Position numbers and translations under genes: made by a program. From sequence record OR204652.1: a stretch of DNA of 40,444 nucleotides. One strand, written 5' to 3'. How positions within the stretch are numbered: position 1 is the stretch's first letter; the number at the start of each line of letters is the position of its first letter. Shown piece by piece: positions 1 to 38,762 of the stretch. The DNA is from Escherichia phage pO111. A model generated the notes under the pieces. It worked only from the letters and a program-made list of their open reading frames with translations, made no database searches and was not told the DNA's origin.

Positions 1-173
1 AGGGACAAGGAGAGACACTCAAGGTAACACCCAAAGGGACAACCCAAAGGTAACACTCAAAGACTCAACCCAACCCTTAGGGAACCCTCAAGGTCAACCG
101 AAGGTTGACTTTAGGTGATTGGCTGGGCTTTAGGTACCCCTATGGGGGAACTTTGGGCGCTTACACTGTGAGA
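1..173. repeat. Direct terminal repeat (genome right end in T7 orientation)
   Basis: 1..173 is identical to 40272..40444; the reverse complement resembles the T7 terminal repeat (TCTCACAGTGTA...). Confidence 0.9.
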
Positions 174-563: not shown

Positions 564-654
564 GAGTCTCCTCCCTTTATGTTGGTTGTATTAACAATAA
601 TAACAACCTACCTTATAGGTAACTTTAAGTCTTATAGTAATCTTTAGGTAGGCT

Positions 655-677
655 TCTCCCTATAGTGAGTCGAATTA
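655..677 (-). promoter_or_regulatory. T7-type phage RNAP promoter (phiOR position)
   Basis: Reverse complement TAATTCGACTCACTATAGGGAGA matches the T7 promoter consensus with one change in the -17..-13 block. Confidence 0.8.
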
Positions 678-728
678 GAATAATGGTCTGGAATCATATA
701 CTTAGACCTGTATCACTAATTTCAAATA

Positions 729-1172
729 TCAATCACTTAGGTAATCCTCAATGACCCTCTTGACCCACGCCACAGAGAGCTTATGGTATCTCGCTATGGA
801 CGTTGCGGTCCAGCCTTTATGGTATCTTCGAATCACTATGGCCTTACGTTCCTCGCTAGGGTCTCTCTTAGTTGCATCACGTTTACCTGTGGCCTTAGTT
901 GCACGACCTTTTGAGATGCAGTCCTCTATGTTCTCCTTCTGAGTCCCTTCCTTAAGGTGCTCAGGGTTAACACATGAAGGATTATCACATAGGTGCATCA
1001 CAACCATTCCGTCAGCTATCGGTCTGCCTAGATGACAACTCAGGGAATACCTGTGGGCCATCCAATGGACTCCGTTCACACGAATGCGACCATAGCCAGT
1101 CTTCGTCTTACATCCCTTAAAGTTCCAGCAACCAGTCTCCTTATCGACAACATACTTCTTCTTGCTTATCAT
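729..1172 (-). CDS. HNH endonuclease with C-terminal helix-turn-helix (putative free-standing homing endonuclease)
   Basis: 147-aa ORF; motif HLCDNPSCVNPEHL (HNH_3-like) plus C-terminal HTH; ATG with AAGGAGGT Shine-Dalgarno; lies between terminase gene 19 and phiOR. Confidence 0.8.
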   Translation of the reverse strand: MISKKKYVVDKETGCWNFKGCKTKTGYGRIRVNGVHWMAHRYSLSCHLGRPIADGMVVMHLCDNPSCVNPEHLKEGTQKENIEDCISKGRATKATGKRDATKRDPSEERKAIVIRRYHKGWTATSIARYHKLSVAWVKRVIEDYLSD

Positions 1173-1209
1173 ATTACCTCCTTAAAGCGGCCTTCCTTGG
1201 CCTCATAAA

Positions 1210-2970
1210 TCACCACTCAATGAAAGACGTACCGTATCCCTCATCGTCCTCATAGTACACATCAACTCCTCCTACAGACATCTCAATGATATGCGTAGCA
1301 GAAACCGTAGGACGCATCATGTGTTCCTCAAGGAAGTCAGCAAGTACTTCACCCTCGACCTTAACGGAATCCAATTGCATGGACTCACGGAGGTACTCAA
1401 CGCCTAACGCAAGGGAATCCAATCGGTCATCGTGTGCCAGAGCGCCTTTCTCACGGGTAATACGAGTCATCTGGTAGAACAGCGAATACTTAACGTCATG
1501 CTTACCGTCTACGTCACGAGCGGACTGGTAGTCGGCCCTAATGACCTCATCACGAATGACAAGGCGGTGAGTCTGCATGACTGGCTCAAGGGTATCACAA
1601 ATGCGCATCTCCTTCATACCACGAGCACGAATCTCTTCCATCGCACAGTTGTGGTGTTTAAGAAGGATAGGACTGAATACCTTACCAAACATACCGTCAC
1701 CGAAGTTACTCTCGTAGACAACCGTCTGGACCCCCCATTGCTTAGCTTTCTTAGCGAGCAACTCAAGGGTCTTATCGGAGTAACCATCACGGAAACCTCC
1801 AGCTTCCATAAGGTAGATGTAACCGTTCAGGGTGTATAGCACAGCGTAACCTGTTTCGTCCTTACCGCGACCACTAGGGTCAATGACCAGAATCTTCTGT
1901 TGGTACTGACCAGAGTTGTTAGAACAATCGTGGTACGTATGAAGGTCATCACCCTTAAGGCCCACGTTAGGAAGGTCCTCAATGATGTTCTGACGGTTCG
2001 GAAGCCACTGGTAATGCATTGGGGCCTTCTCTAAGTCTAAGGCCGCTACGATAGCGTCACGGAGCCTCAGAGGGTACTTCTCGGCATCACTCAGGTTCGG
2101 GTTAAGCATGAACTGTAACGTAAAGCCAGCCTTACCGTATTCCAACTCACGCTCACGGAGGTCGTCTCGGTCGAATCGAACAGGGTCTGTAGGAGTACCA
2201 GCCAGCGCCTCAGGATTCTCCTCGTACTCCGCACGAAGCATTGGAGCAAGACGTTGGGCATAGTAAAGACTCTCTTCACGCGTCCTTGGGTACAAGGCAG
2301 GCCATATGATAGTGGTATACCCACGGTTATCCTCAAGTTCCTTATACAGAGTCATCTCAGTCTGAGGAGTACCAAGGTAGATAACACGAGATGTGGGCAG
2401 CGGTTTAAGAAGCGCAGCGAACTCTTGAACTAGAGTCCATAGCTTCTCACGGGCACCCATGGTCGCACTGTTAGACGGAATCTCAACGTCATCCGCAATG
2501 ATAATATCAGCACGGCTACCAGTTAACTGACCAGTGATACCTACTGATTTCACACTAGGCGAGTGGTCAGGACTAGCAGGACCAACATCGAAACTAATCA
2601 CAGAGTCACGCTGTCCGGGTCTCGGCTTCAACTCACTGAGAAACGGTAGCAGGTCAATGATGTTCTTGATGAATATGGAGTTAGCGTCTGCACGTTCTTT
2701 AGAAGCTGATACGATAAGTATCTTCAACTGAGGGTCCCGCCATAAGGACCACACAACGAACGCACATGTGATGAACGACTTACCGATACCACGGAAAGCC
2801 TGTAAGATGAACTTCTTGTTGTCCCCATTCGCCAGTACCTTAGCCATGTCAATCTGACACTTAGTGGGCACCGGAAGGTTTAACGCCTTCCATAAGACGA
2901 ACAGGAACGCCACGAAGTCTCCTTTCAGTTGCGCCACTACGAGCGCATTACGATTGGATTGAGTAGACAC
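1210..2970 (-). CDS. 19: Terminase large subunit
   Basis: 586 aa, same length and near-identical sequence to recalled T7 gp19; GTG start after AAGGAGGT. Confidence 0.95.
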
Positions 2971-2979
2971 ATTACCTCC

Positions 2980-3429
2980 TTACTTGGTTTCCTGCTTACG
3001 TTGCAGTTCACGAATAGTATCCTGTAACGCACGAATCCACGCATCACCCTTCTGGGTCACTGCGATAATACGTTTAGCATCTCGGTCGTCAAGTTCGGCT
3101 CGACCATCAGGCTCGAATCCACACTTACCATCGGAGGTTCCGGTAGTCTTGATTCTGACGCGCAACCGCTTATTGTCGCTACGCAAATCAGAAATAATCC
3201 TATCAGTGCTCCCTTCCAGCGCGGCAAGGTCTGCTTGATACTTAGCCGATATCTCATTGATTGCTCTTTGAGTGCTCGCCGTAGCCTCAACTCTCTTAAC
3301 GTACTCATTCTGTACCTCCTGTTTCCACTTGGCGTCCATTGAGTCAGCCCCAAGTTGCCATCCCCATCCGAATAGCATCCCAGCGAGAACCCAAGGGACT
3401 GTTCTCTTAACGATTGCAAGTAATACCAT
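2980..3429 (-). CDS. 18.5: Rz-like i-spanin (gp18.5)
   Basis: ORF track 2980..3477 trimmed to the internal ATG (MVLLAIVKRTVPWVLAGMLFG...) that aligns with the T7 gp18.5 N-terminus. Confidence 0.85.
   Translation of the reverse strand: MVLLAIVKRTVPWVLAGMLFGWGWQLGADSMDAKWKQEVQNEYVKRVEATASTQRAINEISAKYQADLAALEGSTDRIISDLRSDNKRLRVRIKTTGTSDGKCGFEPDGRAELDDRDAKRIIAVTQKGDAWIRALQDTIRELQRKQETK
3057..3308 (-). CDS. 18.7: Rz1-like o-spanin lipoprotein (gp18.7), embedded in the +1 frame of Rz
   Basis: MSTLRELRLRRALKEQSMRY...ICVATISGCASES lipobox; 83 aa from the internal ATG of ORF 3057..3419. Confidence 0.85.
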   Translation of the reverse strand: MSTLRELRLRRALKEQSMRYRLSIKQTLPRWKGALIGLFLICVATISGCASESRLPEPPMVSVDSSLMVEPNLTTEMLNVLSQ

Positions 3430-3811
3430 AAGTTTCCTCCAACAATCTCGCGTGAGTTTCCCTAGCCCAAGAAACAACTTCCTCTAGATTAGTGGTAGGC
3501 GCATAAGTTTCCTTACGACCTCCCATGCGAATGTCACCATAGTAGACCATACAGCCTTTCCTCTTTGCGAATCTAGAGTATACACCCTTTGGTAGTTCCC
3601 TACTACTAATCGTGTTAGCCCTGTTAGCACCTCTAGGTACTGCCCTCAGGTTAGATAACGCATTATCCAGTGTGTCACCATTTATATGATCGATGACGTA
3701 CCCTTCTGGGATTGGACCATTGGCCTCTTCCCAAATCAGGCGGTGTACATTGTGTACCTTACCATTTATGGTTACTCGATAGTACCCTCCACTCAGGTAT
3801 TGACCTTCCAT
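3407..3811 (-). CDS. HNH endonuclease with AP2-like DNA-binding tail (putative homing endonuclease)
   Basis: 134-aa ORF; GYVIDHINGDTLDNALSNLRAV HNH motif; ATG with GGAGA Shine-Dalgarno; sits between gene 18 and Rz and overlaps the Rz start by 23 nt. Confidence 0.8.
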   Translation of the reverse strand: MEGQYLSGGYYRVTINGKVHNVHRLIWEEANGPIPEGYVIDHINGDTLDNALSNLRAVPRGANRANTISSRELPKGVYSRFAKRKGCMVYYGDIRMGGRKETYAPTTNLEEVVSWARETHARLLEETYGITCNR

Positions 3812-3873
3812 AATAATCTCTCCTATCTAAATGATATTCATAAGGGCCACTCATTAGAATGACCCTGAGTATA

Positions 3874-4143
3874 TCACTGTAAAGTGTAAATATCGTCATC
3901 CGTAAGACCGTTATCACCGACTTTCTCTTTGTACTCTTCAAGAGCACCAGCAAGTCCACCCAAGATGTGAACATCCGGTTGCAGCTTGCCAATCTGGAAC
4001 TTGTGGCGGTCTAACAGTTTGTTGATGGCGTTGTAGAGTTGTGGAGAACGACGCTCAGGGTCCGAAAGGTCCGCAAGCATACGCTGAGCCATAGCCGTGT
4101 CCAACATCTCTAAGAACGTAATAAGGCTCTTATCTTTTTCCAT
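3874..4143 (-). CDS. 18: Terminase small subunit
   Basis: 89 aa, near-identical to recalled T7 gp18 (MEKDKSLITFLEMLDTAMAQR...). Confidence 0.95.
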   Translation of the reverse strand: MEKDKSLITFLEMLDTAMAQRMLADLSDPERRSPQLYNAINKLLDRHKFQIGKLQPDVHILGGLAGALEEYKEKVGDNGLTDDDIYTLQ

Positions 4144-4146
4144 ATA

Positions 4147-4350
4147 TTACTCCTTATTGGCTTTCTTCCAGTCAATCATCTTATCGACTACCTTGGCACC
4201 AATCTGAACCACTGTATAGGCGATAGCGGCAACGTAGAACCACTCATTAAGACTCAGCCCGAAGAACAGCCTCGCAGCACCATCAGCCACACCTGTACCC
4301 ACAATAGGTGCAGCCTTAACGATTTCATTGTTGAAGTCTAGGGATAGCAT
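4147..4350 (-). CDS. 17.5: Class II holin
   Basis: 67 aa, near-identical to recalled T7 gp17.5. Confidence 0.95.
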   Translation of the reverse strand: MLSLDFNNEIVKAAPIVGTGVADGAARLFFGLSLNEWFYVAAIAYTVVQIGAKVVDKMIDWKKANKE

Positions 4351-4361
4351 TATAGTCCCCC

Positions 4362-5981
4362 TTAATATTGGAAATCAATTTTAGCAAACCAGAAGAAGTT
4401 GTCTCGGACTGTTGAGCCAGAGGAGATGGCAAATACACTACCGCGCTGTACCCACCACGTAACAGTGTTGGCCTCTTGATACTGGGCGCGAGTAGACGTT
4501 GACACCTGCGTTAAGATCACTCCTCCACTTACCGGTGTATAAGGGAAACCAGTATCTGGAATTATGTTTATGTTTACCTGAGTGTTAGGCGGAACCTGCT
4601 CCGCATAACCCCACACTTCTGCCACGGAAGGGTTTGCAGGGTCAACTCTCCAACCACGTAGTGAGTTGCCGCCTGACATTTGATGCGTATTAGCCAATCT
4701 GTTCCACGTCCCATTAGGGTCTCCCCATGCTAATTCTCCGTACTCCGTCATGAATAGCGCTTCACCAATCTTACCGGGCCAGTGGAACGTTATCATAGGA
4801 CTTCGACCTAGATTGTTCGCTGTGTCCCAACCAGCCATTGGTCTAACCTCTATAGCACCATTATATTTTAAACCTAATGGGTTCTCACCATTCTTTCGGA
4901 AAACATTAAGGCCGTCTGATTCACCGGGGAATATCAAACTGGAGTTCCACGCAAACTCAGACTTTTTCAGGTCTTCTTTGGTTACCATAGTGTTACCGTT
5001 TCGGGTGGCTCGACCTTTAACTGCAAGATCCCTACCAACGTCTAGGTCGCCGGAGACAAAATTATAACCAGAAGGGTTACGCGCTTGGATTGCATCGCTA
5101 ACCATCATGGCACCTTTCATGGTGACGTTGTGACTAACTGGGTCCACAGAGTCGATTGCTCCAGCAAAATCGTTCATGTTACCAAGTTTATCTGCCTCAC
5201 TCTCAGCACGGTCTGCTTGCTGTTCTGCCAAAGTAGCAGATTTAGCGGAAGCAGTAGCTGAGTTCGCAGAGTTCACCTCGGATTGATGGGCAGCAGCCGC
5301 AGAGTTACCAGCAGCGGTAGCCTGTTGTGTAGCAGTGTTCTTGAACTGTTCGGCCTCATTTCGGAACCCCTCAGCCTCATTACGCCACTTATAGGTATTA
5401 GCAGCGTTAGTGCTGGACTCGTTCTTAAAGCCCTCCGCTTGGTTCTTGAAAGCCTCTGCTTCATTGCGGAACTGTAAGGACTCATTACGAGCTTGCCAAG
5501 AACTCTGGTTCATGGTCTTAAGTTGACCTAACGGAACAGCGTCACGGTCATCAACAGCGTTCGCTAGGTTCACGATACGACGACCACGGGCATCCAAGTG
5601 ACCATCATTGTTGACACCAATAGTATCCGCAGTCATGTCACGAGCCTCCTCCGCTACGTGCATCGTTTGAATCTGAGCAACGTTAAGGTCATACGCACGG
5701 AGGATTGAACCGTCCGTAAAGCCAACCAATCGGTCGGTCGTGGAGGTTACTCGACGTAACTCAACGGTCGTGTACCCATCAGCCGGACCCCAAGCCTTGG
5801 TCAGTGAGACGGTAGTACGTGTAGCAAAGCGATAGTCTGTATTAATCGTAAGGACCTTGCGGTCTACACCGATAAGAGTTACCACTACGAACTTACGGGC
5901 TAGATACTCAAACGGGATATTAAAATCACGATTGGAGCCATCTAACGGGTAAGTCAAAACGGTTTTAATTACGTTAGCCAT
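4362..5981 (-). CDS. 17: Tail fiber protein (conserved N-terminal tail-attachment domain, divergent C-terminal receptor-binding region)
   Basis: 539 aa; first ~265 aa match recalled T7 gp17, C-terminal ~270 aa do not. Confidence 0.9.
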   Translation of the reverse strand: MANVIKTVLTYPLDGSNRDFNIPFEYLARKFVVVTLIGVDRKVLTINTDYRFATRTTVSLTKAWGPADGYTTVELRRVTSTTDRLVGFTDGSILRAYDLNVAQIQTMHVAEEARDMTADTIGVNNDGHLDARGRRIVNLANAVDDRDAVPLGQLKTMNQSSWQARNESLQFRNEAEAFKNQAEGFKNESSTNAANTYKWRNEAEGFRNEAEQFKNTATQQATAAGNSAAAAHQSEVNSANSATASAKSATLAEQQADRAESEADKLGNMNDFAGAIDSVDPVSHNVTMKGAMMVSDAIQARNPSGYNFVSGDLDVGRDLAVKGRATRNGNTMVTKEDLKKSEFAWNSSLIFPGESDGLNVFRKNGENPLGLKYNGAIEVRPMAGWDTANNLGRSPMITFHWPGKIGEALFMTEYGELAWGDPNGTWNRLANTHQMSGGNSLRGWRVDPANPSVAEVWGYAEQVPPNTQVNINIIPDTGFPYTPVSGGVILTQVSTSTRAQYQEANTVTWWVQRGSVFAISSGSTVRDNFFWFAKIDFQY

Positions 5982-6033: not shown

Positions 6034-6056
6034 TCTCCCTATAGTGAGTCGTATTA
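6034..6056 (-). promoter_or_regulatory. T7-type phage RNAP promoter phi17
   Basis: Reverse complement TAATACGACTCACTATAGGGAGA, exact consensus. Confidence 0.9.
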
Positions 6057-18752: not shown

Positions 18753-20360
18753 AATGCCCGGCTGTAGACCTACGGAATCAGCGGCAGCAGCCATAGCCTC
18801 AGGTGAAGCTGTAGCCTGCGCAGCCATACCTTGACCAAGCGCAGCAGCACCACTATCCATACCCATTTGCATAGACTGTTGAGCCATCCTCTGTTGCTTC
18901 TGTTCTTCGGTAAGAAGGATACCAGAAGTGTCAATACCGATAGCGTTAGCAATGCGCAACTTAATCATTGCAAGGTTGATGTCAGGGTCGTCACGCATAG
19001 GAGCAAGAGCAGCCCACGCAGCGACACAACGCTCCAGCTTATCAAGGTCTTGTCCTCGACCGATTGCTTCCAGACCTGTACTAATGGTTGGCTCTACTGC
19101 TTCCTTAGGTAACTCAGGAATCTGTTGCGTGGCTTGTAGCTGCTTCAAGAGCACTCGTACCAGAGGCAATTGTAATTCTTGAGAAAGGATGGAGTAGACA
19201 CCACCTAAAGTATCTTCAAGTTCAGAAGCGACATACCGAATCTCTTCGGCTGTCACACGTTCACCTGTGCGCTGAACCGCAGAGTTCAACATAAAGGCAA
19301 ACGAAAGGCGAGCCTCAATAGCGTCACTGACAGCCTTGGCTACAGTAAAGTCTGCTTGCTTCTCCAGTTGGAGGAACGAGATGTCTTCTGGACGACCAGT
19401 AACGAAGTCACCAGTCTGAGCTTTGGTCAGTCGGCGTGGCTGGGTGATACCAGCAGGATTCACTAAGCCGATAACCTTAGAGCTAATCATGGACATCTTG
19501 ACGATAGCCTCTTGGAGATTCTCAAGGGACCGTAAGTCACCTAAGTATTCCTCAATGTACGAACGACCGTAGGATTCACCGTCAAGACGAACCATTCGAA
19601 TCGGGATGTATGGGCAAGCATCTTTAGGATATGCACCATCGGAGCCTTGTATCTCCATACCTTCAACCTCTTCGTAGCGGAGATATTCGTCTGACTCTTC
19701 GTCCAAGTAGATGTGAGTGTACACATCAATGGTCTCATCAGGTTTCTTCTCACCGCCTTGACCTTCTACAGCCTTACGGATGTCCTCAGGGAGAGCACCA
19801 AAAGCTATCTGGTCACGAGTCACCATTTGCAGAACGTTGCCGAATGCGTCTCGTTGGACCACATAAGAAGACAATCGGTACAGCTTCATGGGATTGTAGT
19901 TTGACCCTTCTGGTTCCGGTAGGTACAGTAGGACGTTACCCGCTACGACTAACTGCTTGAGAGCCTCAAAGAGAGTTACTCGGTAGCTGTTAGACTCAAT
20001 GTAGTTCATGATAATGCGCTCTACCATTGAGAGGCCCTCATCAACCTTAGCGAGTCCATCGGGGTCGCTCAGTAGTTGTTTTGCCTCGAACTCAGAGATG
20101 GTTAAGCGCATCCAAGTCTGCATGGGGAATAACGCCAGCATTAGTTTAGACGCTAGGTTATTCAGGCCACGGGCACCAACGGCTTGCCACGGAGTTGTGT
20201 AGTCTGTAGATGCGTTGTCGGAGTCCTTAGGGAATAAGGAGGGGATGGTATATTGAGCGCAATTCTGAGCGCGTGTCTCATAAGGAGCACGGTCGTTCTT
20301 TAAACGCTCATAGACGGACTTTGCGCCCTCCTCCGCAAGTCCTGTTCGTTTCTCAGCCAT
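18750..20360 (-). CDS. 8: Portal (head-to-tail connector) protein
   Basis: ORF track trimmed to MAEKRTGLAEEG (536 aa as in T7 gp8); its ATG overlaps the upstream HNH stop as TAATG. Confidence 0.93.
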   Translation of the reverse strand: MAEKRTGLAEEGAKSVYERLKNDRAPYETRAQNCAQYTIPSLFPKDSDNASTDYTTPWQAVGARGLNNLASKLMLALFPMQTWMRLTISEFEAKQLLSDPDGLAKVDEGLSMVERIIMNYIESNSYRVTLFEALKQLVVAGNVLLYLPEPEGSNYNPMKLYRLSSYVVQRDAFGNVLQMVTRDQIAFGALPEDIRKAVEGQGGEKKPDETIDVYTHIYLDEESDEYLRYEEVEGMEIQGSDGAYPKDACPYIPIRMVRLDGESYGRSYIEEYLGDLRSLENLQEAIVKMSMISSKVIGLVNPAGITQPRRLTKAQTGDFVTGRPEDISFLQLEKQADFTVAKAVSDAIEARLSFAFMLNSAVQRTGERVTAEEIRYVASELEDTLGGVYSILSQELQLPLVRVLLKQLQATQQIPELPKEAVEPTISTGLEAIGRGQDLDKLERCVAAWAALAPMRDDPDINLAMIKLRIANAIGIDTSGILLTEEQKQQRMAQQSMQMGMDSGAAALGQGMAAQATASPEAMAAAADSVGLQPGI

Positions 20361-20761
20361 TAAATATGTCTCCATGTCTTACCACATCGAGCGTCACTAA
20401 TGGTTCTCCTATGGATGCCATACATTTCTGACAACTCAGTGTTGGTTAAATTTGATGCACGAATCTCACGCACAATGGCCTCAGTGAGCTTGGCACCGTA
20501 ATGCTCTTCACCTCTGGATGCGTTCGCTCTACCTTTAGTTACACAGTCCATACGGTTATCACGCTGAGTGCCAGCTACAAGATGTTCAGGGTTGATACAC
20601 AGAGGATTGTCACAGGTATGCATTATGACCATACCAGTCGGTATCTCACCCTTTGATTTGATGTATGCTACCCTGTGAGCCAGCTGTGTCTTACCTTTGT
20701 AACCAACGAGACCGTACCCTCCTTTAGTCGTACAACCAGTATGAAGGATACAATCTGTCAT
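20360..20761 (-). CDS. HNH endonuclease with C-terminal helix-turn-helix (gene 7.7 position)
   Basis: 133 aa; HTCDNPLCINPEHL motif; same architecture as the ORFs at 729..1172 and 30008..30436. Confidence 0.8.
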   Translation of the reverse strand: MTDCILHTGCTTKGGYGLVGYKGKTQLAHRVAYIKSKGEIPTGMVIMHTCDNPLCINPEHLVAGTQRDNRMDCVTKGRANASRGEEHYGAKLTEAIVREIRASNLTNTELSEMYGIHRRTISDARCGKTWRHI

Positions 20762-23769: not shown

Positions 23770-23925
23770 TTAGTGACATACGGCCCAATTAGGACCCATC
23801 TTACCTTCGGTATCCAGAAGACACCGGAAGTTCCAGTGGTCTCCTACCCAGCGCATCGCTTCCTGTGCAGTCTCAATGACCACCTGAGCAATCTCTTCGG
23901 TACGGCAACCTACTTGAATCTCATC
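23770..23925 (-). CDS. 5: DNA polymerase gene 5, exon 2 (C-terminal 51 codons)
   Basis: Manual translation DEIQVGCRTEEIAQVVIETAQEAMRWVGDHWNFRCLLDTEGKMGPNWAVCH*, which continues the T7 gp5 sequence right after ...AYMAWVH. Confidence 0.85.
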   Translation of the reverse strand, partial: DEIQVGCRTEEIAQVVIETAQEAMRWVGDHWNFRCLLDTEGKMGPNWAVCH

Positions 23926-24526
23926 CTTTCTGTATTCTCCTATTACTAGGAGTGTCGGACTATATCATCAGCCTTTGAGTTGACTGTCTGGCGCTTCGGG
24001 TAACGAGGGAATCTCACCCTCGGCCCTACTCCTTTCGGATAGTCTCTACGCCTTCCACTCTCTAATCCACTTACAAGCGGCAGAGAACGTTACACCAAAC
24101 TTCTCACCTAAGTGTGCTCCTGTACATCCAGTCTCCAACCAGTATTCCTTCGCGGACTCTTTACGGTCAGCGTAGCGTTCCCTGTTTGTCTTGACTGTAT
24201 GCTCAGAACCTTCTAGTAACTGGAGGTGCTCTACGTTACAGCACGCCCTGTTCCTACACTTGTGGTCTACTTCATACCCTTCTGGTATATCTCCGTAGTG
24301 TTCCTTCCAGACTGTCCTGTGATACATCTCTAGGACACCGTTCGTCTTCTTTCGGAAATAACCATCAGTATTAAGTTTGTGTGACGTAGGGATGATACAA
24401 CCACTCGCTGTGGTCGCAAGGATTAACTTCTTGCCTCTCATATATCCTCCCTATGGCTTGGCTCGGTATTGCCCTAGAAGGGTTTCACCGAGTTCACCAG
24501 ATTTAATGTGCACAATGAGATAGTTT
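23926..24526 (-). mobile_element. Group I self-splicing intron in DNA polymerase gene 5, carrying an HNH homing-endonuclease ORF
   Basis: 601 nt between the gp5 exons; exon 1 ends in U; GUGCAC near the intron 5' end can pair with exon end GUGCAU (U-G wobble); R-like AGAGACUA and S-like GAUAUAGUCC elements; CUCCUA-GUAA-UAGGAG hairpin; intron ends in G. Confidence 0.8.
24046..24441 (-). CDS. Intron-encoded HNH homing endonuclease
   Basis: 131 aa ORF inside the intron; YEVDHKCRNRACCNVEHL HNH-type motif; ATG with GGGAGGA Shine-Dalgarno; stop codon overlaps the R-like element. Confidence 0.82.
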   Translation of the reverse strand: MRGKKLILATTASGCIIPTSHKLNTDGYFRKKTNGVLEMYHRTVWKEHYGDIPEGYEVDHKCRNRACCNVEHLQLLEGSEHTVKTNRERYADRKESAKEYWLETGCTGAHLGEKFGVTFSAACKWIREWKA

Positions 24527-26485
24527 ATGCACCCATGCCATGTACGCAAAGTCCCCATCCCAGCCATGCTTCAAGCCTTTCTCTACGAGCATCTCTTCGG
24601 TCTTGATAATCCACAGTTTGCAGATGAGAGCACCAGCAGATTGTAATAGGGTATTCAAGGCAGCGTGAGGACTACGGACGTGTACCTTACGACCATCCAG
24701 ACCTTTAATCCAGCGGCGTTTCCACTTGACTCGCTGTTCGCCAGCTACCCACTGAGAGGACTCAACAAGTGTCTGTTGGATAGACTCACGGAGTGCTGCA
24801 ATCGCTGGGGTGTTCTCAAGGAATTTCTTCTTGAGTTCCTTACCGCGCTCTTTACCAGCACCAACAATCTGTCCAATCTTCTCATCACCAGCACCATAGA
24901 GGAACCCATAGATAAACGTCTTAGCGTTATCACGGGTAGGCAATTCGGCAGCTATCTGGTTCTTAGTGTGGATGTCGCCATTGAGAATCTCGTGAGCGTA
25001 CTCACCGTTGTCAAAGCGAGCCATGAAGTGGGCCAAGCATCGCAACTCCAGACCGGAGGCGTCTATACCAGCCTGAACCCAAGGCTTACCTGTAAGTCCA
25101 TCTAGGTGATGTTCAGCGCCAAAAGCAGCGCGGCACTGCTCACCATAAGGAGAACGGACACCGGGTATCTGTGCGAGGTTAGGGAAAGCGTGAGTAGCGC
25201 GCCCAGTAACAGCGCCGTTGGGATTAACAGAACCATGAATTTTACCATCCTCAGCAACGTAACGAAGCCACGCCTTGTCTCCCTCAGCTGACTGTCCGAT
25301 TCTCTTCTGAATCATCAAGTATTCTTTAATGAGGTCGATTGCAGCTTGCTTCTCAGGGTCATCTACACGTACTCCTTCGAGTACCTCATCGTCCACCACA
25401 GGCGCACCCTTATCGGTGTACTTCGTGGGGACCCACCCAGCCTCTTGAAGTTTCTTCTGAATGTGGTCACGGGACGAAGGGTTAAACACTACGTGCTCTA
25501 CCGGAGTATATGGGGCACCAGCAACGTACTCGCGGGTATCCAGTTCGCAAGGCTCACGGCCTTCTCGTTGTGCCTTGTTCTTAGGCTTCTTAAAGATACC
25601 ACCAACTTTAGGTGTCTTAATGCGAGGGTATTTAGGCAGTGGTTTACCTGTCCGAGGATGGCAGAACATCTCAGTGCCACCTTTAGGCTGATACCACGAG
25701 CCGAACGTTTCGGTCAGCTTACGCAGCAACTCTGAGCGGCGAGCAGCCAACTCTACGTACAACTCCTCGATTGCTTTCGTGTCAAACGGGAATCCATTAC
25801 GCTCTTGCTTAGCGAGTAGCCATGCAGCGCGATGTTCAACATCAACGGCCTCAAGGGATTCTGACCAGAACGTAGTGTAGCCTACGTCCGTAAAGTCAAT
25901 CTCAGGAGGGAAGTAATGTTTATCAGAGAGTAGCTTCTCAAGGAGAGCCTTAGTGACCACAACGTCCTGAACGTTATAGGCCATCATCTCTTCGTTGAAG
26001 TTCCACCACTCCATTCCGTCAACGTATTCTTCACCTTGCTCTTCAAGCATACGCTTAAAGTCATCCTTGTATTCACCCTTCATCTCACCTAAGCGATAGC
26101 CCCACGCCTCCAAAGCGTGAGACCCAAAGCGTTTACCGGGCAACTTACCGGAACGCAGAAGACCCATATCGGTGTCTTTAAGGTTAGAGTGAATCAATCG
26201 TGACAGCACAAGGGTGTCGATACAGTTCTCACGGGGAAGGTGGAACTCACGGTTCAATTGTAGCTTTGCCAGTTTGGTCAATGCGGGAACGTCATACTTG
26301 TGACCGTTGTGGAACACGATAAGACCGCCTCGTGCAACCTCGGCTTCCAGCGCATCCAGATACGCACCGAAGTCACTCGGACGGTAGCTTACGTACTCAG
26401 CGGTGGAGTAGTCATAGATAACCCCGCAGTGGAACTTAGTGACGCTCTCTAAGAGGGCGTTAGCTTCGATGTCAGAAACGATCAT
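24527..26485 (-). CDS. 5: DNA polymerase gene 5, exon 1 (653 codons)
   Basis: Near-identical to recalled T7 gp5 residues 1-653; the unspliced ORF runs 7 extra codons (KLSHCAH*) into the intron. Confidence 0.9.
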
Positions 26486-27325: not shown

Positions 27326-29075
<1,750 letters not shown>

Positions 29076-29107
29076 TCAATGATGCGAACAAAGGGAAACC
29101 GTTGTGG

Positions 29108-29130
29108 TCTCCCTATAGTGAGTTCAATTA
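29108..29130 (-). promoter_or_regulatory. T7-type phage RNAP promoter (phi3.8 position) with a phi10-like leader
   Basis: Reverse complement TAATTGAACTCACTATAGGGAGACCACAACGGTTTCCC; gene 4 follows directly, with no gene 3.8. Confidence 0.8.
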
Positions 29131-29131
29131 A

Positions 29132-29587
29132 TTAGCCACGGTCTGACGCGACAAGTTCGTTCTTCTCCCACCAACGCTTAAGGTCGAACGAAGGGCAAGC
29201 CTTCGGAGCCACATCGTGATGGGCTTTCAGTACAGCGCCTTCGTACTTAGCCAGTAGTGTGACAAGCAGTGAGCGAAGGGATTGCATCTGGGCTGGCGTA
29301 AAGTTAGCGTCGAACTTGCCTTTATCGTCAATGCCACCAACAAGGCAGACACCGATGGAGTTATGGTTGTGACCCTTAGCGTGAGAACCTACAGCCATCT
29401 CATCTCGGCCTTCCTCTACAGTGCCATCGCGCTTGATGATAAAATGATACCCGACATCAAGCCAACCTTGCTCTTTATGCCACTGACGAATCTCACGGAC
29501 ACCTACATTCTGATTTGGCTTGGTAGCCGAGCAGTGAACAAAGATTGCGTCAGTAGATTCGCGTTGTTTAAACTGTACACGAGCCAT
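29132..29587 (-). CDS. 3.5: Lysozyme (N-acetylmuramoyl-L-alanine amidase, RNAP inhibitor)
   Basis: 151 aa, MARVQFKQRESTDAIFVHCSATKPNQNVG matches recalled T7 gp3.5. Confidence 0.95.
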   Translation of the reverse strand: MARVQFKQRESTDAIFVHCSATKPNQNVGVREIRQWHKEQGWLDVGYHFIIKRDGTVEEGRDEMAVGSHAKGHNHNSIGVCLVGGIDDKGKFDANFTPAQMQSLRSLLVTLLAKYEGAVLKAHHDVAPKACPSFDLKRWWEKNELVASDRG

Positions 29588-32461: not shown

Positions 32462-32492
32462 AACGCAGAAAGGCCCACCCTAAGGTGAGCCA
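32462..32492 (-). terminator. Early-region intrinsic terminator TE (for host RNAP)
   Basis: mRNA GGCUCACC-UUAG-GGUGGGCC hairpin followed by UUUCUGCGUUU; matches the recalled T7 TE. Confidence 0.85.
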
Positions 32493-32497
32493 GTTAG

Positions 32498-32995
32498 TTA
32501 TTGTAGCTCAGCTAGTAGTTTGTCGCGGGTCGCTACAGCCTCGTTAAGTGACTTGTGATATGAGACATATCGTCTGCCGAACTTCCTAACGGAGACGGTG
32601 TATAGGTTTCTATCATGTCTCTTATTGATGTGCTTAAGCCCCAGCTTGTTGGTGCAGAATGCTCCTTTGTTCTGATTGTTCTCAGCGCTTGTGACCACTC
32701 TGAGATTCTCTATGAGGTTATTCTGCTTATTTCTATCGATATGGTCTATCTGTAAACCGTCTGGTATAGGGCCGTTAGCAAGTTCCCACACTACTCTGTG
32801 AACCATTAAGTAGTGCGCCTTTCCTTCCACCCTGACACATAGAGTCCAATACCCAGTCTTCTTTAGATAGCCAACGGGCTTCCCATTAATACGCGAGAGG
32901 CCACTAGGAGACTCCCTGTCAATCTTAAATCTTTTCGCTACGATTTCCCTCAACTCCACGGAAGCAGGTGAAGGAAGGATGTCTGAGACTTCCAC
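32498..32995 (-). CDS. HNH endonuclease (free-standing, putative homing endonuclease) at the gene 1.4 position
   Basis: 165 aa; LQIDHIDRNKQNNLIENLRVVTSAENNQNKG HNH motif; GTG start with GGAGG Shine-Dalgarno; overlaps the last 71 nt of the ligase gene. Confidence 0.8.
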   Translation of the reverse strand: MEVSDILPSPASVELREIVAKRFKIDRESPSGLSRINGKPVGYLKKTGYWTLCVRVEGKAHYLMVHRVVWELANGPIPDGLQIDHIDRNKQNNLIENLRVVTSAENNQNKGAFCTNKLGLKHINKRHDRNLYTVSVRKFGRRYVSYHKSLNEAVATRDKLLAELQ

Positions 32996-33941
32996 TTTCT
33001 GTTTCCTCCATATAATTTACTTGGCAAGACCATCCGTTATAGTAGTCCTCCCCGTGCTCCTTAACGTTGGCGGTAAATTCGTCCATTAAGGCGCGAGAGA
33101 TATTGTTAGCGTCTACAATACGCCCTGTCTCAAGAAGCACCGTGAACCCTATTACCTTACCTTCGTTGGCTAGACCTTTCGTACCCCAGTTTACACCTTG
33201 GATGATACCGTCTGCTTCGTTCTCTGGCTTGAGTTTCCACCAGCCGGACTTCTTACCGCGCTTGTAGATGCACATCGGGTCTTTCACAATGAGACCCTCA
33301 TGCCCTTCTTCACGCTTCTTCTCGTACAGTTGCTGTAGTTCTACCATGTCGTAAATCTCGTAAGACTCAGCCGCTTGCCATTCGATTTCAGGGAAGTATT
33401 CCTGTAGCAGAGGCAGCATGTTCTTAACGTGTTCCTGCATGAGCAGCGTCATGACATCACAGTCTTCTCCAGACTCTACGATGTGCAGCGGTAGGATAGC
33501 ATACAGTTTGACACTCAGACGTTTGGTGTCCAACGCGAACTCAACCTTGGACCCCTTGAGTGGTGGCACACCGCCAACGTCGAACTCAAAGTTCTTCTTG
33601 TTGAGCCACTTGGTGCGCAGAAGACCGGAGCCAGTGTTGAAGTCTACACCTTTGACCATCAGTTCACCATCGAGCATGAAGCCGTCAGGGTAGAAGCATC
33701 GGTCATCACGAAGGAGGCGTTGCCAGCGAGAGTCAAAACCGTTCAAATGCTCAAGTGCCGGAATCGTTTTAGAAACACGAGAGAGCCAGCAACTGTTAGC
33801 AGTGTTGTCTACGCAGATGTTCCCACGTACACCATCGTACTTACAATCGACAATTAGGTATCCCGCATTGTCTAAGGCCTTCTTCACAGCGGATTCAACA
33901 AAAGACACAGCTTTAAATGGGATGGTCTTAATGTTCATCAT
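32925..33941 (-). CDS. 1.3: ATP-dependent DNA ligase
   Basis: 338 aa with the adenylation motif KYDGVRG; N-terminus MMNIKT as in T7 gp1.3; shorter than the 359 aa recalled for T7. Confidence 0.93.
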   Translation of the reverse strand: MMNIKTIPFKAVSFVESAVKKALDNAGYLIVDCKYDGVRGNICVDNTANSCWLSRVSKTIPALEHLNGFDSRWQRLLRDDRCFYPDGFMLDGELMVKGVDFNTGSGLLRTKWLNKKNFEFDVGGVPPLKGSKVEFALDTKRLSVKLYAILPLHIVESGEDCDVMTLLMQEHVKNMLPLLQEYFPEIEWQAAESYEIYDMVELQQLYEKKREEGHEGLIVKDPMCIYKRGKKSGWWKLKPENEADGIIQGVNWGTKGLANEGKVIGFTVLLETGRIVDANNISRALMDEFTANVKEHGEDYYNGWSCQVNYMEETESGSLRHPSFTCFRGVEGNRSEKI

Positions 33942-34606: not shown

Positions 34607-37258
34607 TTACGCAAACGCGAAGTCTGAATTAAGGATGTCTTGGAGATTCAAGTTACCCTTAGCCGGAAGTGCTGGCATTTTATCCAATTGAGACTCATGT
34701 AACTGGTCAGCGAACTGGTCGTAGAAGTCAGCCAGTACATCACAAGATTCATAGGTGTCAACCATAGTTTCGCGCACAGCTTTGAACAGGTTGGCAGCGT
34801 CAGCCGGAATGGTCCCGAAGGAGTCATGAATCAGTGCAAACGATTCGATTCCGTACTTCTCATGCGCCCACACTACAGTCTTACGCAGGTGGCTACCGTC
34901 TTGGCTGTGTACAAAGTTAGGAGCGATACCGGACTCCTGTTTGTGTGCATCAATCTCGCTATCCTTGTTTGTGTTAATGGTAGGCTGTAGACGGAACTGA
35001 CCGAGGAAAATCAGGTTCAAGCGAGTCTGAATAGGCTTCTTGTATTCCTGCCACACAGGGAAGCCGTCAGGAGTCACCCAATGCACAGCGCAACGCTTGC
35101 GAAGAATCTCTCCGGTCTTCTTATCTTTGACCTCAGCAGCCAGCAGCTTAGCAGCAGACTTGAGCCAGTTCATAGCCTCTACAGCAGCCACTACGGTAAC
35201 GCTCACTGACTCCCAGATCAGCTTAGCCATATACCCAGCAGCCTGATTAGGTTGGGTGAACATCAGACCTTTGCCTGAATCAATAGCTGGCTGTATGGTG
35301 TCCTCAAGGACTTGCTGGCGGAAGCCGAACTCTTTGGACCCGTAAGCCAGAGTCATGACTGAACGCTTAGTCACGCTACGAGTTACACCGTAAGCCAGCC
35401 ATTGACCAGCCAGTGCCTTAGTACCCAGCTTGACTTTCTCAGAGATTTCACCAGTGTTCTCATCAGTCACGGTAACTACTTCGTTATCGGTCCCGTTGAT
35501 TACATCCGATTGCAGAATCTCGTTGACTTTCTTGGCAACAATCCCGTAGATGTCCTGAACGGTTTCGCTAGGCAGCAGGTTAACAGCACGACCACCCACC
35601 TCATCGCGGAGCATTGCGGAGAAGTGCTGGATACCGGAGCAAGACCCATCGAACGCCAGTGGCAGCGAGCAGTTGTAGCTCAAGCCGTGGTGCTGTACCC
35701 CAGCGTACTCAAAGCAGAACGCGAGGAAACAGAACGGAGAATCTTGCTCAGCCCACCAAGTGTTTTCCAGAGGAGACTTAGCGCAAGCCATGATGTTATC
35801 GTGGTTATCCTCAATGAACTTGATGCGCTCAGGGAACGGAACCTTATCGACACCAGCGCAGTTAGCCCCGTGAATTTTCAGCCAGTAGAATCCTTCCTTA
35901 CCGATTGGTTTACCTTTAGCCAGCGTCAGCAGTCCCTTGGTCATGTCGTTACCTTGCGGGTTGAACATTGACACAGCGTAAACGCGACCACGCCAGTCCA
36001 TGTTGTAAGGGAACCAGATGGCCTTATGGTTAGCGAACTTATTGGCTTGCTCAAGCATGAACTCAAGGCTGATACGGCGAGACTTACGTGCCTTGTCCTT
36101 GCGGTACACAGCGGCAGCTGCACGTTTCCAAGCGGTCAGTGCCTCAAGATTCGTGTCGATGTCTTCCGGTTTCATCGGGAGTTCTTCACGCTCAATAGAC
36201 GGGATGTCTTCAACTGGACAATGCTTCCACTTGGTGATTACGTTGGCGACCGCTAGGACTTTCTTGTTGATTTTCCATGCGGTGTTTTGCGCAATGTTAA
36301 TCGCTTTGTACACCTCAGGCATGTAGACATCTTCGTAGCGCATCAGTGCTTTCTTGCTGTGAGTGCGTACCAGCGCCAGAGGACGGCGACCGTTAGCCCA
36401 ATAGCCACCACCAGTAATACCAGTCCACGGCTTAGGAGGAACTACGCAAGGCTGGAACATTGGGGAAATACCAGCTAGTGCTCCAGCGCGAGTGGCGATG
36501 GCCTCAGCGTATTCAGGCGCGAGTTCGATAGTCTCAGAGTCTTGCCCCACTACGCCAGCGTTTTGACGATGTAAGCTAACCATTCCGGTTGACTCAATGA
36601 GCATCTCAATGCAGCGCACCCCAACGTGAATTGAGTCTTCCTTATGCCACGAAGACCACGCCTCGCCGCCCATTAGACCCTTAGAGAGCATGTCAGCTTC
36701 GACAACCTGCATGAATGCCTTCTTGTAGACGTGCCCTACGCGCTTGTTGAGTTGTTCCTCAACGTGTTTCTTGAAGTGCTTGGCCTCAAGGTCACGGATG
36801 CGACCAAAGCGCGCCTCATCCTCAATGGCTCGACCGATTGCGCTTGCTACAGCCTGAACGGTTGTATTGTCTGCACTGGTTAGACAAGCCAGAGTGGTTT
36901 TGATGGTGATGTACGCTACGGCTTCCGGCTTGATTTCTTGCAGGAACTGGAAGGCTGTCGGGCGTTTGCCGCGCTTAGCTTTCACTTTCTCAAACCAGTC
37001 GTTGATGCGTGCAATCATCTTAGGGAGCAGGGTAGTAATGAGAGGCTTAGCGGCCGCATTGTCTGCAACATCACCGGCCTTGAGTTGACGCTCAAACATC
37101 TTGCGGAAGCGTGCTTCACCCATTTCGTAAGACTCATGCTCAAGGGCCAACTGCTCGCGAGCTAGACGCTCACCATAGTGATCAGCCAGAGTGTTGAACG
37201 GGATAGCGGCTAGTTCGATGTCAGAGAAATCGTTCTTAGCGATGTTAATCGTGCTCAT
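34607..37258 (-). CDS. 1: DNA-directed RNA polymerase (single-subunit, T7-type)
   Basis: 883 aa, near-identical to recalled T7 RNAP; consistent with the T7-consensus promoters across the window. Confidence 0.97.
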   Translation of the reverse strand: MSTINIAKNDFSDIELAAIPFNTLADHYGERLAREQLALEHESYEMGEARFRKMFERQLKAGDVADNAAAKPLITTLLPKMIARINDWFEKVKAKRGKRPTAFQFLQEIKPEAVAYITIKTTLACLTSADNTTVQAVASAIGRAIEDEARFGRIRDLEAKHFKKHVEEQLNKRVGHVYKKAFMQVVEADMLSKGLMGGEAWSSWHKEDSIHVGVRCIEMLIESTGMVSLHRQNAGVVGQDSETIELAPEYAEAIATRAGALAGISPMFQPCVVPPKPWTGITGGGYWANGRRPLALVRTHSKKALMRYEDVYMPEVYKAINIAQNTAWKINKKVLAVANVITKWKHCPVEDIPSIEREELPMKPEDIDTNLEALTAWKRAAAAVYRKDKARKSRRISLEFMLEQANKFANHKAIWFPYNMDWRGRVYAVSMFNPQGNDMTKGLLTLAKGKPIGKEGFYWLKIHGANCAGVDKVPFPERIKFIEDNHDNIMACAKSPLENTWWAEQDSPFCFLAFCFEYAGVQHHGLSYNCSLPLAFDGSCSGIQHFSAMLRDEVGGRAVNLLPSETVQDIYGIVAKKVNEILQSDVINGTDNEVVTVTDENTGEISEKVKLGTKALAGQWLAYGVTRSVTKRSVMTLAYGSKEFGFRQQVLEDTIQPAIDSGKGLMFTQPNQAAGYMAKLIWESVSVTVVAAVEAMNWLKSAAKLLAAEVKDKKTGEILRKRCAVHWVTPDGFPVWQEYKKPIQTRLNLIFLGQFRLQPTINTNKDSEIDAHKQESGIAPNFVHSQDGSHLRKTVVWAHEKYGIESFALIHDSFGTIPADAANLFKAVRETMVDTYESCDVLADFYDQFADQLHESQLDKMPALPAKGNLNLQDILNSDFAFA

Positions 37259-37439
37259 TTTGTACCTCTTTCGGTCAGGAATCGTATCTATTCAGGCCAC
37301 CCGTAGATGACCTGTAAGATAAGACTATCAGCCCATTAGCATTGCGTCAAGTTTCTTATCAATGTTGAGCTGAAGACCATTAGCGATAGCCATCCGGTCA
37401 GCTTGGAACCAGTGCGCTGCGATTCGTTCCTCAAGCACC

Positions 37440-38408: not shown

Positions 38409-38436
38409 TTTGTGCGTTCTCCAGTGTTAAATGTGA

Positions 38437-38574
38437 TTAGATATTGTTGAGCTTGCGATTGGTGCGCAGTTCACGCTTAAGGCGTTCGATTCGGTGTTTC
38501 ATTGCGAAGCCATCAGGTGTGCAAACTGTAGCGCCGTTCTTGGTGTGGATAGGCATAACGTAGTATTTCAGCAT
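38437..38574 (-). CDS. 0.6: gp0.6-like small protein (45 aa)
   Basis: MLKYYVMPIHTKNGATVCTPDGFAMKHRIERLKRELRTNRKLNNI; ATG overlaps the gp0.5 stop. Confidence 0.55.
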   Translation of the reverse strand: MLKYYVMPIHTKNGATVCTPDGFAMKHRIERLKRELRTNRKLNNI

Positions 38575-38729
38575 TTGCGCAGTGCTCCCGTAATGATACA
38601 AGCGACCAAGTAAGAGCCTACAGCTACGCCTAAGGACTTCCCAAAGGATGCGCCTACAGCTAGACCCAGAGCGGTGAGTAGACCGATAGTAAGCATATAC
38701 ATTACTCCCGTAAGTAAAGTGATAATCAT
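38568..38729 (-). CDS. 0.5: gp0.5-like small membrane protein (53 aa)
   Basis: Manual translation MIITLLTGVMYMLTIGLLTALGLAVGASFGKSLGVAVGSYLVACIITGALRKC; hydrophobic. Confidence 0.55.
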   Translation of the reverse strand: MIITLLTGVMYMLTIGLLTALGLAVGASFGKSLGVAVGSYLVACIITGALRKC

Positions 38730-38730
38730 G

Positions 38731-38760: not shown

Positions 38761-38762
38761 TA

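What the first reader, a model, noticed from the sequence alone, without database searches (positions are those of the whole stretch)
3407..3811. HNH endonuclease gene inserted between terminase small subunit and Rz, overlapping the Rz start
As I recall T7, gene 18 and gene 18.5 are about 95 bp apart. Here the gap is about 445 bp and holds a 134-aa HNH ORF (DHINGD...NLRAV plus an AP2-like tail) with its own GGAGA Shine-Dalgarno. Its 3' end overlaps the first 23 nt of the Rz reading frame. The flanking genes 18, 17.5 and 18.5 are near-identical to T7, which suggests a recent homing-endonuclease insertion.
Basis: partly seen in the sequence, partly recalled or inferred. Interest (0 to 1): 0.6.

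Follow-up and report, generated by a model that had tools for sequence, protein, structure and literature searches.

The report
Free-standing HNH homing endonuclease cassette
A T7-like phage carries a selfish nuclease gene between its small terminase and Rz spanin genes; annotated relatives sit at the same spot in other T7-like genera, so it is a well-documented but ordinary case.

Summary

It is absent from T7 and from the T7-like records listed. It is not a simple insertion. A 431-nt cassette (3399..3829) replaces the 75 nt that in T7 follow the R18.5 hairpin, including the gene 18.5 ribosome-binding site, start codon and first eight codons. The 3' end of the cassette supplies a new ribosome-binding site, ATG and N-terminus for Rz, which produces the 23-nt overlap.

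The same family, with the same junctions and the same overlap, is already annotated as HNH or homing endonuclease in Przondovirus and Kayfunavirus. In Helsettvirus it is decayed. Three near-identical copies occur in other T7-like assemblies, with dN/dS about 0.04.

"Recent insertion" is not supported. The copies differ by 3-5% within the genus and by about 30% between genera.

The replaced segment contains a 15-mer, CTACGTGAAATCTGA, that is identical in endonuclease-free genomes with very different spacers. I propose it as the target site. This is untested.

Verdict: a new member of a known kind, of modest interest.

The parts
3874..4143 (-). Gene 18, terminase small subunit (89 aa). This is the upstream neighbour.
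   Evidence: PF11123 DNA_Packaging_2, E=1e-15. 99% aa identity to T7 gp18.
3830..3878 (-). Two-stem hairpin homologous to the T7 hairpin between genes 18 and 18.5. From my own knowledge this is the RNase III site R18.5. It overlaps the gene 18 stop codon, and the cassette starts at its 3' foot.
   Evidence: Aligned with T7, KP32, K1F, YZ1, fPS-54-ocr and L004. The RNAalifold consensus has 18 pairs, 5 of them with compensatory changes.
3399..3829 (-). The 431-nt cassette that has no counterpart in T7. It replaces T7 36867..36941 (75 nt).
   Evidence: BLASTN of the window against T7: 3830..4349 matches 36345..36866, and 1204..3398 matches 36942..39136. The hand alignment agrees.
3818..3823 (-). 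Shine-Dalgarno sequence GGAGAG of the HNH gene, 6 nt before its ATG.
   Evidence: Read from the sequence.
3407..3811 (-). HNH-AP2 homing endonuclease ORF, 134 aa.
3623..3748 (-). HNH_3 catalytic core (aa 22-63). D41, H42, N54 and N63 align with I-HmuI D74, H75, N87 and N96.
3428..3592 (-). C-terminal domain with an AP2-like DNA-binding fold (aa ~74-128): three strands plus a helix.
3435..3440 (-). Shine-Dalgarno sequence GGAGGA for Rz, lying inside the HNH coding sequence.
   Evidence: Read from the sequence. It is conserved in IME321, YZ1, fPS-54-ocr and fPS-9.
2980..3429 (-). Gene 18.5, Rz i-spanin (149 aa). Its first 23 nt (3407..3429) overlap the HNH ORF. About the first 10 codons come from the cassette. 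Homology to T7 resumes at 3398.
   Evidence: PF03245. Gene calls of 149 aa in L004-L006. Alignments.
3057..3308 (-). Gene 18.7 (Rz1 o-spanin) embedded in 18.5. It is unaffected by the cassette.
   Evidence: The ORF is. Its position corresponds to T7 37032..37283.

Best explanation
The ORF is a free-standing homing endonuclease gene. It encodes a small two-domain protein: an I-HmuI-like HNH (His-Me finger) nuclease fused to a DNA-binding domain with an AP2-like fold.

It travels as a 431-nt cassette that begins exactly at the 3' foot of the hairpin after gene 18 and ends 8 nt after its own stop codon. The cassette has its own ribosome-binding site but no promoter. It must therefore be read from late T7-RNA-polymerase transcripts; the nearest upstream promoter is phi17.

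Its last ~35 nt encode, in another frame, a substitute ribosome-binding site, ATG and N-terminus for Rz. The spanin gene stays expressed even though its original leader and first codons were removed.

Inferred mechanism: when the phage co-infects a cell with an endonuclease-free relative, the enzyme nicks or cuts that relative's DNA in or near the 75-nt segment that the carrier lacks. My candidate site is the 15-mer CTACGTGAAATCTGA, identical in all the endonuclease-free genomes I retrieved. Recombinational repair by the phage's own machinery then copies the cassette into the cut genome.

Shown here: the protein family, the intact active site, the fold, purifying selection, the exact boundaries, occupation of the same site in four genera, and decay products. 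Inferred only: nuclease activity, the target site and actual homing.
For: Protein identity:
- HNH_3, E=3e-19; PHROG HNH families.
- The only PDB sequence hit is I-HmuI, with the D-H...N...N residues aligned and invariant in 29 homologues.

Expression and context:
- No T7-type promoter lies between 6034 and 677 other than phi17 and phiOR.
- No intron signal around the ORF.

Boundaries and distribution:
- Boundaries against T7.
- The same cassette with sharp boundaries separates close relatives that carry or lack it: IME321 vs KP32 (flanks 95-97% nt) and YZ1 vs K1F (flanks 91-96% nt).
- Homologues at this locus are annotated as HNH or homing endonuclease.
- Decay stages at the same locus in Helsettvirus: a 1-nt frameshift in fPS-54-ocr and a 210-nt internal deletion in fPS-9. 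Both keep the 3' end that carries the Rz start.

Mobility and selection:
- T7-like carriers (window, L004, L005) are no closer to each other in the flanks (93-96%) than to T7. The cassette is 94.7-97.4% identical among them. For window vs L005 the cassette is significantly more similar than the flanks, p=9e-5.
- dN/dS 0-0.05.

Candidate target:
- The 15-mer is unique in T7 and absent from the window.
- It is present at the homologous position in 38 endonuclease-free T7-like contigs whose surrounding spacers differ.
Against: - No enzymatic activity, cleavage site or homing event has been shown for any member of this family. I found no paper on it.
- Between genera the cassette is about as diverged at nucleotide level (70-71%) as the flanking genes (58-81%). 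Long vertical residence with repeated loss therefore cannot be excluded.
- Only one of three pairwise tests shows the cassette to be significantly more similar than its flanks.
- The 15-mer was found by exact-match search, so its invariance is partly ascertainment. K1F carries a 1-nt variant.
- Strong purifying selection is also what a gene useful to the phage would show.
Confidence: 0.8

Rival explanations
1. The nuclease is kept because it benefits the phage rather than as a purely selfish element. For example, it could act as a weapon that cuts the genomes of co-infecting T7-like competitors (interference competition or marker exclusion). The cassette is then held in place because it now provides the Rz start.
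For: Very strong purifying selection (dN/dS 0-0.05). The candidate target is conserved across genera, so many competitors would be vulnerable. Decayed copies keep the Rz-start part, which shows the cassette's 3' end has become functionally necessary.
Against: The element is absent from T7 and from all T7-like (Teseptimavirus) records listed. It decays in Helsettvirus. That is the normal life cycle of a selfish element. This rival is not exclusive of homing.
Confidence: 0.15
2. The gene is ancestral to this group of phages, and T7 and most relatives lost it. On this view the window shows retention, not gain.
For: The same gene occupies the same junction in four genera. Between-genus nucleotide divergence is similar to that of the neighbouring genes.
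Against: Endonuclease-free genomes of different genera share a specific 75-nt-type segment: the identical 15-mer and an Rz N-terminus starting MLE... Deletion of the cassette could not regenerate this segment. Real decay products look different and keep the cassette ends. Presence of the cassette does not follow backbone similarity.
Confidence: 0.1
3. It is a terminase-associated HNH that assists DNA packaging, like HK97 gp74, as its position inside the terminase/lysis module might suggest.
For: It lies between the small and large terminase genes. The literature links some HNH proteins next to terminases with packaging; this is cited in PMC8861465.
Against: T7 and the T7-like relatives listed package DNA without it. 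It matches the HNH_3 family and has an AP2-like domain, the make-up of homing enzymes. Decayed copies exist in phages that were isolated and sequenced.
Confidence: 0.03

Closest known systems
HNH or 'homing endonuclease' genes annotated between the terminase small subunit and Rz in Klebsiella phages (Przondovirus, e.g. vB_KpnP_IME321 YP_009806253, P509) and Escherichia phages (Kayfunavirus, e.g. YZ1 YP_009798560, TM1, BUCT788)
   Same: Same protein family (73-79% aa identity) and same length (133-134 aa). Same left junction after the hairpin. Same 20-23-nt overlap that supplies the Rz start.
   Different: The host backbone here is a T7-like Teseptimavirus. No record in the 50,697-record phage collection encodes a copy with 80% or more aa identity. 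Nucleotide identity to those copies is only about 70-72%. None of them appears to have been characterised experimentally.
I-HmuI, the intron-encoded HNH nicking homing endonuclease of Bacillus phage SPO1 (PDB 1U3E)
   Different: I-HmuI is intron-encoded and uses helical and helix-turn-helix DNA-binding modules. The protein here is free-standing and has an AP2-like domain. Only about 30% identity, over 70-80 residues.
The HNH homing endonuclease gene between the lysis gene and the terminase large subunit in Hafnia phage Ca and Citrobacter phage CR44b (PMC8861465)
   Same: It is a free-standing HNH gene in the terminase/lysis module of a T7-like phage. It overlaps its neighbouring genes and is polymorphic for presence or absence.
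   Different: It sits at a different junction (Rz/terminase large subunit rather than terminase small subunit/Rz) and belongs to a different HNH lineage. An HNH about 41% identical lies near that position in L104.
Other HNH genes of T7-like phages: T7 genes 3.8 and 7.7, and the group I intron HNH in the DNA polymerase gene
   Same: All match HNH_3 and vary in presence between related phages. This window has four more such ORFs.
   Different: They are only distant paralogues (phmmer E 1e-14 to 0.06 within the window). They sit at other loci and have other C-terminal domains (HTH, zinc loop).

Membership tests
HNH_3 (PF13392) / I-HmuI-like His-Me finger endonucleases | Profile match above the curated threshold | tested here: met
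   68.7 bits against a cut-off of 24.8, E=3.3e-19, aa 22-63.
HNH_3 (PF13392) / I-HmuI-like His-Me finger endonucleases | Catalytic and metal-binding residues (I-HmuI D74, H75, N87, N96; the roles are from my own knowledge of the 1U3E work) | tested here: met
   D41, H42, N54 and N63 align to them. They are invariant across 29 homologues.
HNH_3 (PF13392) / I-HmuI-like His-Me finger endonucleases | Beta-beta-alpha-metal fold | tested here: met
HNH_3 (PF13392) / I-HmuI-like His-Me finger endonucleases | Metal-dependent DNA nicking or cleavage | not testable with these tools
   Needs purified protein.
AP2 DNA-binding domain (PF00847) | Pfam profile match | tested here: not met
   No PF00847 hit even at E<=1.
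AP2 DNA-binding domain (PF00847) | Three-stranded sheet packed on a helix, superimposable on solved AP2 domains | tested here: met
AP2 DNA-binding domain (PF00847) | Homology link through intermediate sequences that do match PF00847 | tested here: met
   Distant homologues P0020, P0024, P0026, P0030 and P0033 carry PF00847 plus PF13392. Their AP2 regions align with aa ~74-125.
Free-standing homing endonuclease gene | Presence/absence polymorphism between close relatives, with sharp boundaries | tested here: met
   Window vs T7, IME321 vs KP32 and YZ1 vs K1F.
Free-standing homing endonuclease gene | Located between genes, not inside an intron or intein | tested here: met
   It lies between gene 18 and 18.5, with no Rfam hit at E<=1 in 3350..3900. 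For contrast, the gene 5 insertion does hit Intron_gpI.
Free-standing homing endonuclease gene | Element history incongruent with backbone history | tested here: inconclusive
   Carriers are no closer to each other than to T7 in the flanks. The cassette is significantly more similar than the flanks in one of three pairs (p=9e-5, 0.09, 0.33).
Free-standing homing endonuclease gene | The carrier lacks the sequence present in the empty allele (self-immunity) | tested here: met
   The 75-nt T7 segment and its 15-mer are absent from the window. This is a necessary condition only.
Free-standing homing endonuclease gene | Cleavage of the empty allele and super-Mendelian inheritance in crosses | not testable with these tools
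   Needs enzyme assays and mixed infections.
Terminase-associated packaging HNH (HK97 gp74 type) | Consistently present and required within the phage group | tested here: not met
   Absent from T7 and from all T7-like records listed. Decayed in Helsettvirus phages.

The most novel reading that the evidence does not exclude
This endonuclease family recognises a short element, CTACGTGAAATCTGA, in the leader of the Rz gene. The element is kept identical in endonuclease-free T7-like phages of several genera for an unknown reason of their own. That would explain why one family has colonised exactly the same junction in Teseptimavirus, Przondovirus, Kayfunavirus and Helsettvirus. The cassette also entrenches itself by replacing the Rz translation start, so that even dead copies cannot be cleanly lost. 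If true, the enzyme could act as a cross-genus weapon between co-infecting T7-like phages. It would also point to an unrecognised functional element in the T7 18.5 leader.
Probability: 0.35. Interest if true: 0.5.

Novelty: new member of a known kind. Interest (0 to 1): 0.3.

Why it matters
The gene itself matters little. HNH homing endonuclease genes are common in T7-like phages, and this family is already annotated at this very junction in other genera.

It is useful for three reasons:
- It gives a clean set of filled, empty and decayed alleles of one locus across four genera.
- It shows how a selfish cassette can take over the translation start of its downstream host gene.
- It yields a concrete, cheap-to-test candidate target site in the model phage T7. 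That could provide a new site-specific nicking or cutting enzyme and a marker-exclusion system for T7 genetics.

Tried and rejected
- Rfam searches gave nothing. The whole window at gathering threshold and 3350..3900 at E<=1 had no hits, so the gene is not in an intron and no curated RNA family covers the hairpin.
- Scans for sigma-70-type promoters and terminators in 2900..4400 gave counts no higher than shuffled sequence. A T7-promoter search found none inside the 18-18.5 interval. The idea of a cassette-borne promoter was dropped.
- Pfam AP2 did not hit. The AP2 claim therefore rests on fold and on intermediate homologues only.
- The Vibrio ICP3-type and Pantoea DNA hits turned out to be about 50-nt matches to the hairpin only, not to the gene.
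- IMG/VR held only three close copies, all of the Klebsiella type.
- I looked for a conserved RNA structure in the endonuclease-free 18.5 leader that might explain the 15-mer. RNAalifold gave -1.8 kcal/mol, so no support.
- Literature searches for a characterised enzyme at this locus, or for the 15-mer, found nothing relevant. The single hit for the 15-mer is a T7 CRISPRi paper whose title and abstract show no link to this locus; I did not open it.
- Between-genus dS is saturated, so the transfer could not be dated.

Full report
**What the window is.** The 40,444-nt window is a complete T7-like (Teseptimavirus-type) genome in reverse orientation. It has 173-nt terminal repeats (1..173 = 40272..40444). 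Its nearest records are phages 13a and T7, at about 93% nucleotide identity. All genes discussed lie on the minus strand.

ORF 3407..3811(-) is 134 aa and starts at an ATG. GGAGAG lies six nt upstream of that ATG.
- Gene 18 (terminase small subunit) is 3874..4143.
- Gene 18.5 (Rz) starts at the ATG at 3429, behind GGAGGA at 3440..3435, and ends at 2980. That gives 149 aa, the same as the gene calls on three related contigs.
- The HNH stop codon is at 3409..3407, so the two frames share 23 nt.
- The 18-18.5 gap is 444 nt here and 94 nt in T7.

**What the protein is.**
- Pfam gives HNH_3 at 68.7 bits against a threshold of 24.8. The best PHROG families are all HNH endonucleases.
- The only solved structure found by sequence is I-HmuI. 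Its D74, H75, N87 and N96 align with D41, H42, N54 and N63. Those columns are invariant in an alignment of 29 homologues.
- An AlphaFold model built on that alignment is confident, with mean pLDDT 93.7.
- Pfam AP2 does not hit directly. However, more distant homologues carry PF00847 at the aligned position.
- The gene is under strong purifying selection. Against three other T7-like copies, 9-23 nucleotide differences produce 0-3 amino-acid changes, dN/dS 0-0.05.

**Anatomy of the difference from T7.** BLASTN of the window against T7 gives two blocks: 3830..4349 = T7 36345..36866, and 1204..3398 = T7 36942..39136. So 431 nt (3399..3829) stand in place of 75 nt of T7 (36867..36941).
- The lost T7 segment holds the spacer after the hairpin, the 18.5 ribosome-binding site, the ATG and the first eight codons.
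- The cassette starts at the 3' foot of the hairpin that follows gene 18. From my own knowledge this is the RNase III site R18.5; the record's feature table does not list it.
- That hairpin is conserved in genomes with and without the cassette. Five of its base pairs show compensatory changes.
- The cassette ends 8 nt after the HNH stop codon.
- Its last ~35 nt encode, in a second frame, a new ribosome-binding site, ATG and N-terminus for Rz: MVLLAIVKRTVPW..., against MLEFLRKLIPW... in T7.
- No T7-type promoter lies in the interval. The nearest upstream one is phi17 at 6034..6056. The gene must therefore be read from late transcripts.

**The same element elsewhere.** Protein and DNA searches of 50,697 phage records found the family at this same junction in three other genera.
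- In Klebsiella phages (Przondovirus) and Escherichia phages (Kayfunavirus) it is about 72% nt and 71-79% aa identical. It is often annotated 'HNH endonuclease' or 'homing endonuclease'.
- In IME321 the gene is 134 aa and overlaps Rz by 23 nt. In YZ1 it is 133 aa with a 20-nt overlap.
- Close relatives without the gene exist in each genus. Compared with them the cassette has the same sharp boundaries: IME321 vs KP32 with flanks 95-97% nt, and YZ1 vs K1F with flanks 91-96% nt.
- In Helsettvirus the element is decaying. fPS-54-ocr has a 1-nt frameshift, giving an annotated 84-aa ORF. fPS-9 has a 210-nt internal deletion that removes the catalytic core.
- Both decayed copies retain the 3' end that carries the Rz ribosome-binding site and ATG. 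This shows that the cassette's 3' end has become necessary to the host gene.

**Within T7-like phages.**
- No record in the phage collection encodes a copy with 80% or more aa identity. The listed T7-like records all lack the element. IMG/VR holds only Klebsiella-type copies.
- Three SRA-derived assemblies do carry it in a T7-like context, at 98-100% aa identity.
- These carriers are no closer to each other in the flanking genes (93-96%) than each is to T7. The cassette is 94.7-97.4% identical among them.
- For window vs L005 the cassette is significantly more similar than the flanks (p=9e-5). For the other two pairs it is not.
- This fits movement of the cassette between diverged backbones, but the evidence is limited.

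**'Recent' is not supported.**
- The copies differ by 3-5% within the genus and by about 30% between genera.
- Between-genus nucleotide divergence is like that of the neighbouring genes.
- Synonymous sites between genera are saturated.

**What the cassette replaced.** The endonuclease-free alleles of T7, KP32 and K1F share two things:
- an Rz N-terminus starting MLE;
- a 15-nt block, CTACGTGAAATCTGA, with one extra A in K1F.

The block is unique in T7, at 36884..36898, and absent from the window. Thirty-eight of them have the hairpin signature upstream. They comprise 23 distinct leader sequences whose spacers differ widely around the identical 15-mer. None has this HNH nearby. Because the scan required an exact match, the invariance is partly ascertainment. 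I found no conserved RNA fold for the leader and no literature on the motif. It is my candidate for the enzyme's recognition site. This is an inference, not a result.

**Mechanism proposed.**
1. The gene is expressed late from read-through transcripts.
2. The HNH-AP2 protein binds and nicks or cuts the empty allele of a co-infecting relative. I-HmuI, the closest solved relative, is a nicking enzyme (my own knowledge).
3. The phage's recombination system repairs the break from the carrier genome. This copies the cassette together with its replacement Rz start.
4. The carrier is immune because it lacks the 75-nt segment.

**Rivals.**
- A beneficial competition weapon. This is compatible with homing and is favoured by the strong purifying selection.
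- An ancestral gene lost in T7. This is disfavoured because the empty alleles share specific sequence that deletion of the cassette could not recreate, and because real decay products look different.
- A packaging HNH. This is disfavoured by the sporadic distribution and by the family type.

**Comparison with known systems.** This is a member of an already annotated, but apparently uncharacterised, family of free-standing HNH-AP2 homing endonuclease genes of T7-like phages. What is new is only its presence in a T7-like (Teseptimavirus) backbone. A related but distinct case, an HNH gene between Rz and the terminase large subunit that overlaps both neighbours, was described in Hafnia phage Ca (PMC8861465).

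**Verdict.** This is a new member of a known kind, with interest about 0.3. The most interesting open points are the conserved 15-mer and the capture of the Rz start.

Noticed in passing
window 23926..24526 (-), HNH ORF 24046..24441: The DNA polymerase gene (gene 5) is split. Exon 1 ends ...AYMAWVH at about 24527. A 601-nt insertion sits exactly between T7 16311 and 16312. The C-terminal ~47 codons resume at about 23925 (ORF 23770..23883 reads ...VVIETAQEAMRWVGDHWNF...CH). Rfam Intron_gpI matches 23936..24536 over the full model at 38.4 bits (below the gathering score of 50; E=3e-8 in the local search). This is a group I intron carrying an HNH_3 ORF of 131 aa.
   Followed up: partly
window 32498..32995 (-): A further HNH_3 ORF (165 aa, Pfam E=2e-21) lies just downstream of the ligase gene, in a stretch (about 32462..33081) with no match in T7. 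It is the closest paralogue of the studied gene within the window (phmmer E=1e-14).
   Followed up: partly
window 729..1172 (-): A 147-aa ORF with HNH_3, a zinc-loop (zf-His_Me_endon) match and an HTH_23 domain lies downstream of the terminase large subunit. The stretch (587..1203) has no match in T7. The same gene is present in contig L004.
   Followed up: partly
window 29060..29132 and 20360..20761 (-): T7 gene 3.8, annotated as an HNH endonuclease in the RefSeq record, is absent here. Only 71 nt separate the lysozyme and primase genes. A gene 7.7-type HNH (133 aa) is present. The window has five HNH ORFs in all, against two annotated in the T7 RefSeq record.
   Followed up: partly
T7 36884..36898 (L010); 38 IMG/VR loci among L060-L139: The 15-mer CTACGTGAAATCTGA lies between the R18.5 hairpin and the Rz ribosome-binding site. 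It is identical in endonuclease-free T7-like genomes whose surrounding spacers differ widely. I know of no function for it, found no conserved RNA fold, and found no literature.
   Followed up: partly
window 3310..3370 (-), Rz transmembrane region: A cluster of about 7 substitutions is unique to the window relative to T7 and to all three other carriers. It changes LFGLGWHLGSD to LFGWGWQLGAD. It could be a small recombination patch just downstream of the cassette.
   Followed up: no
window 4350..5190 (-), C-terminal part of tail fibre gene 17: There is no nucleotide match to T7 (T7 35415..36344 is unmatched). The receptor-binding end of the tail fibre is therefore of a different type from T7's.
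   Followed up: no
L004 2025..2408; L005 around the gene 18 stop codon: Related carrier contigs differ locally. L004 has an extra 127-aa ORF between the tail fibre and holin genes, and a different upper stem in the hairpin. L005 has a 6-nt AGTGAT duplication at the gene 18 stop codon.
   Followed up: no
window 3824..3876 (-) versus Vibrio phage ICP3, position ~13.7 kb: The hairpin sequence after gene 18 matches Vibrio cholerae T7-like phages (ICP3, N4, VP4) at 86-88% over about 50 nt, at a quite different genome position. This suggests that a processing-site hairpin sequence is shared between distant T7-like phages.
   Followed up: no
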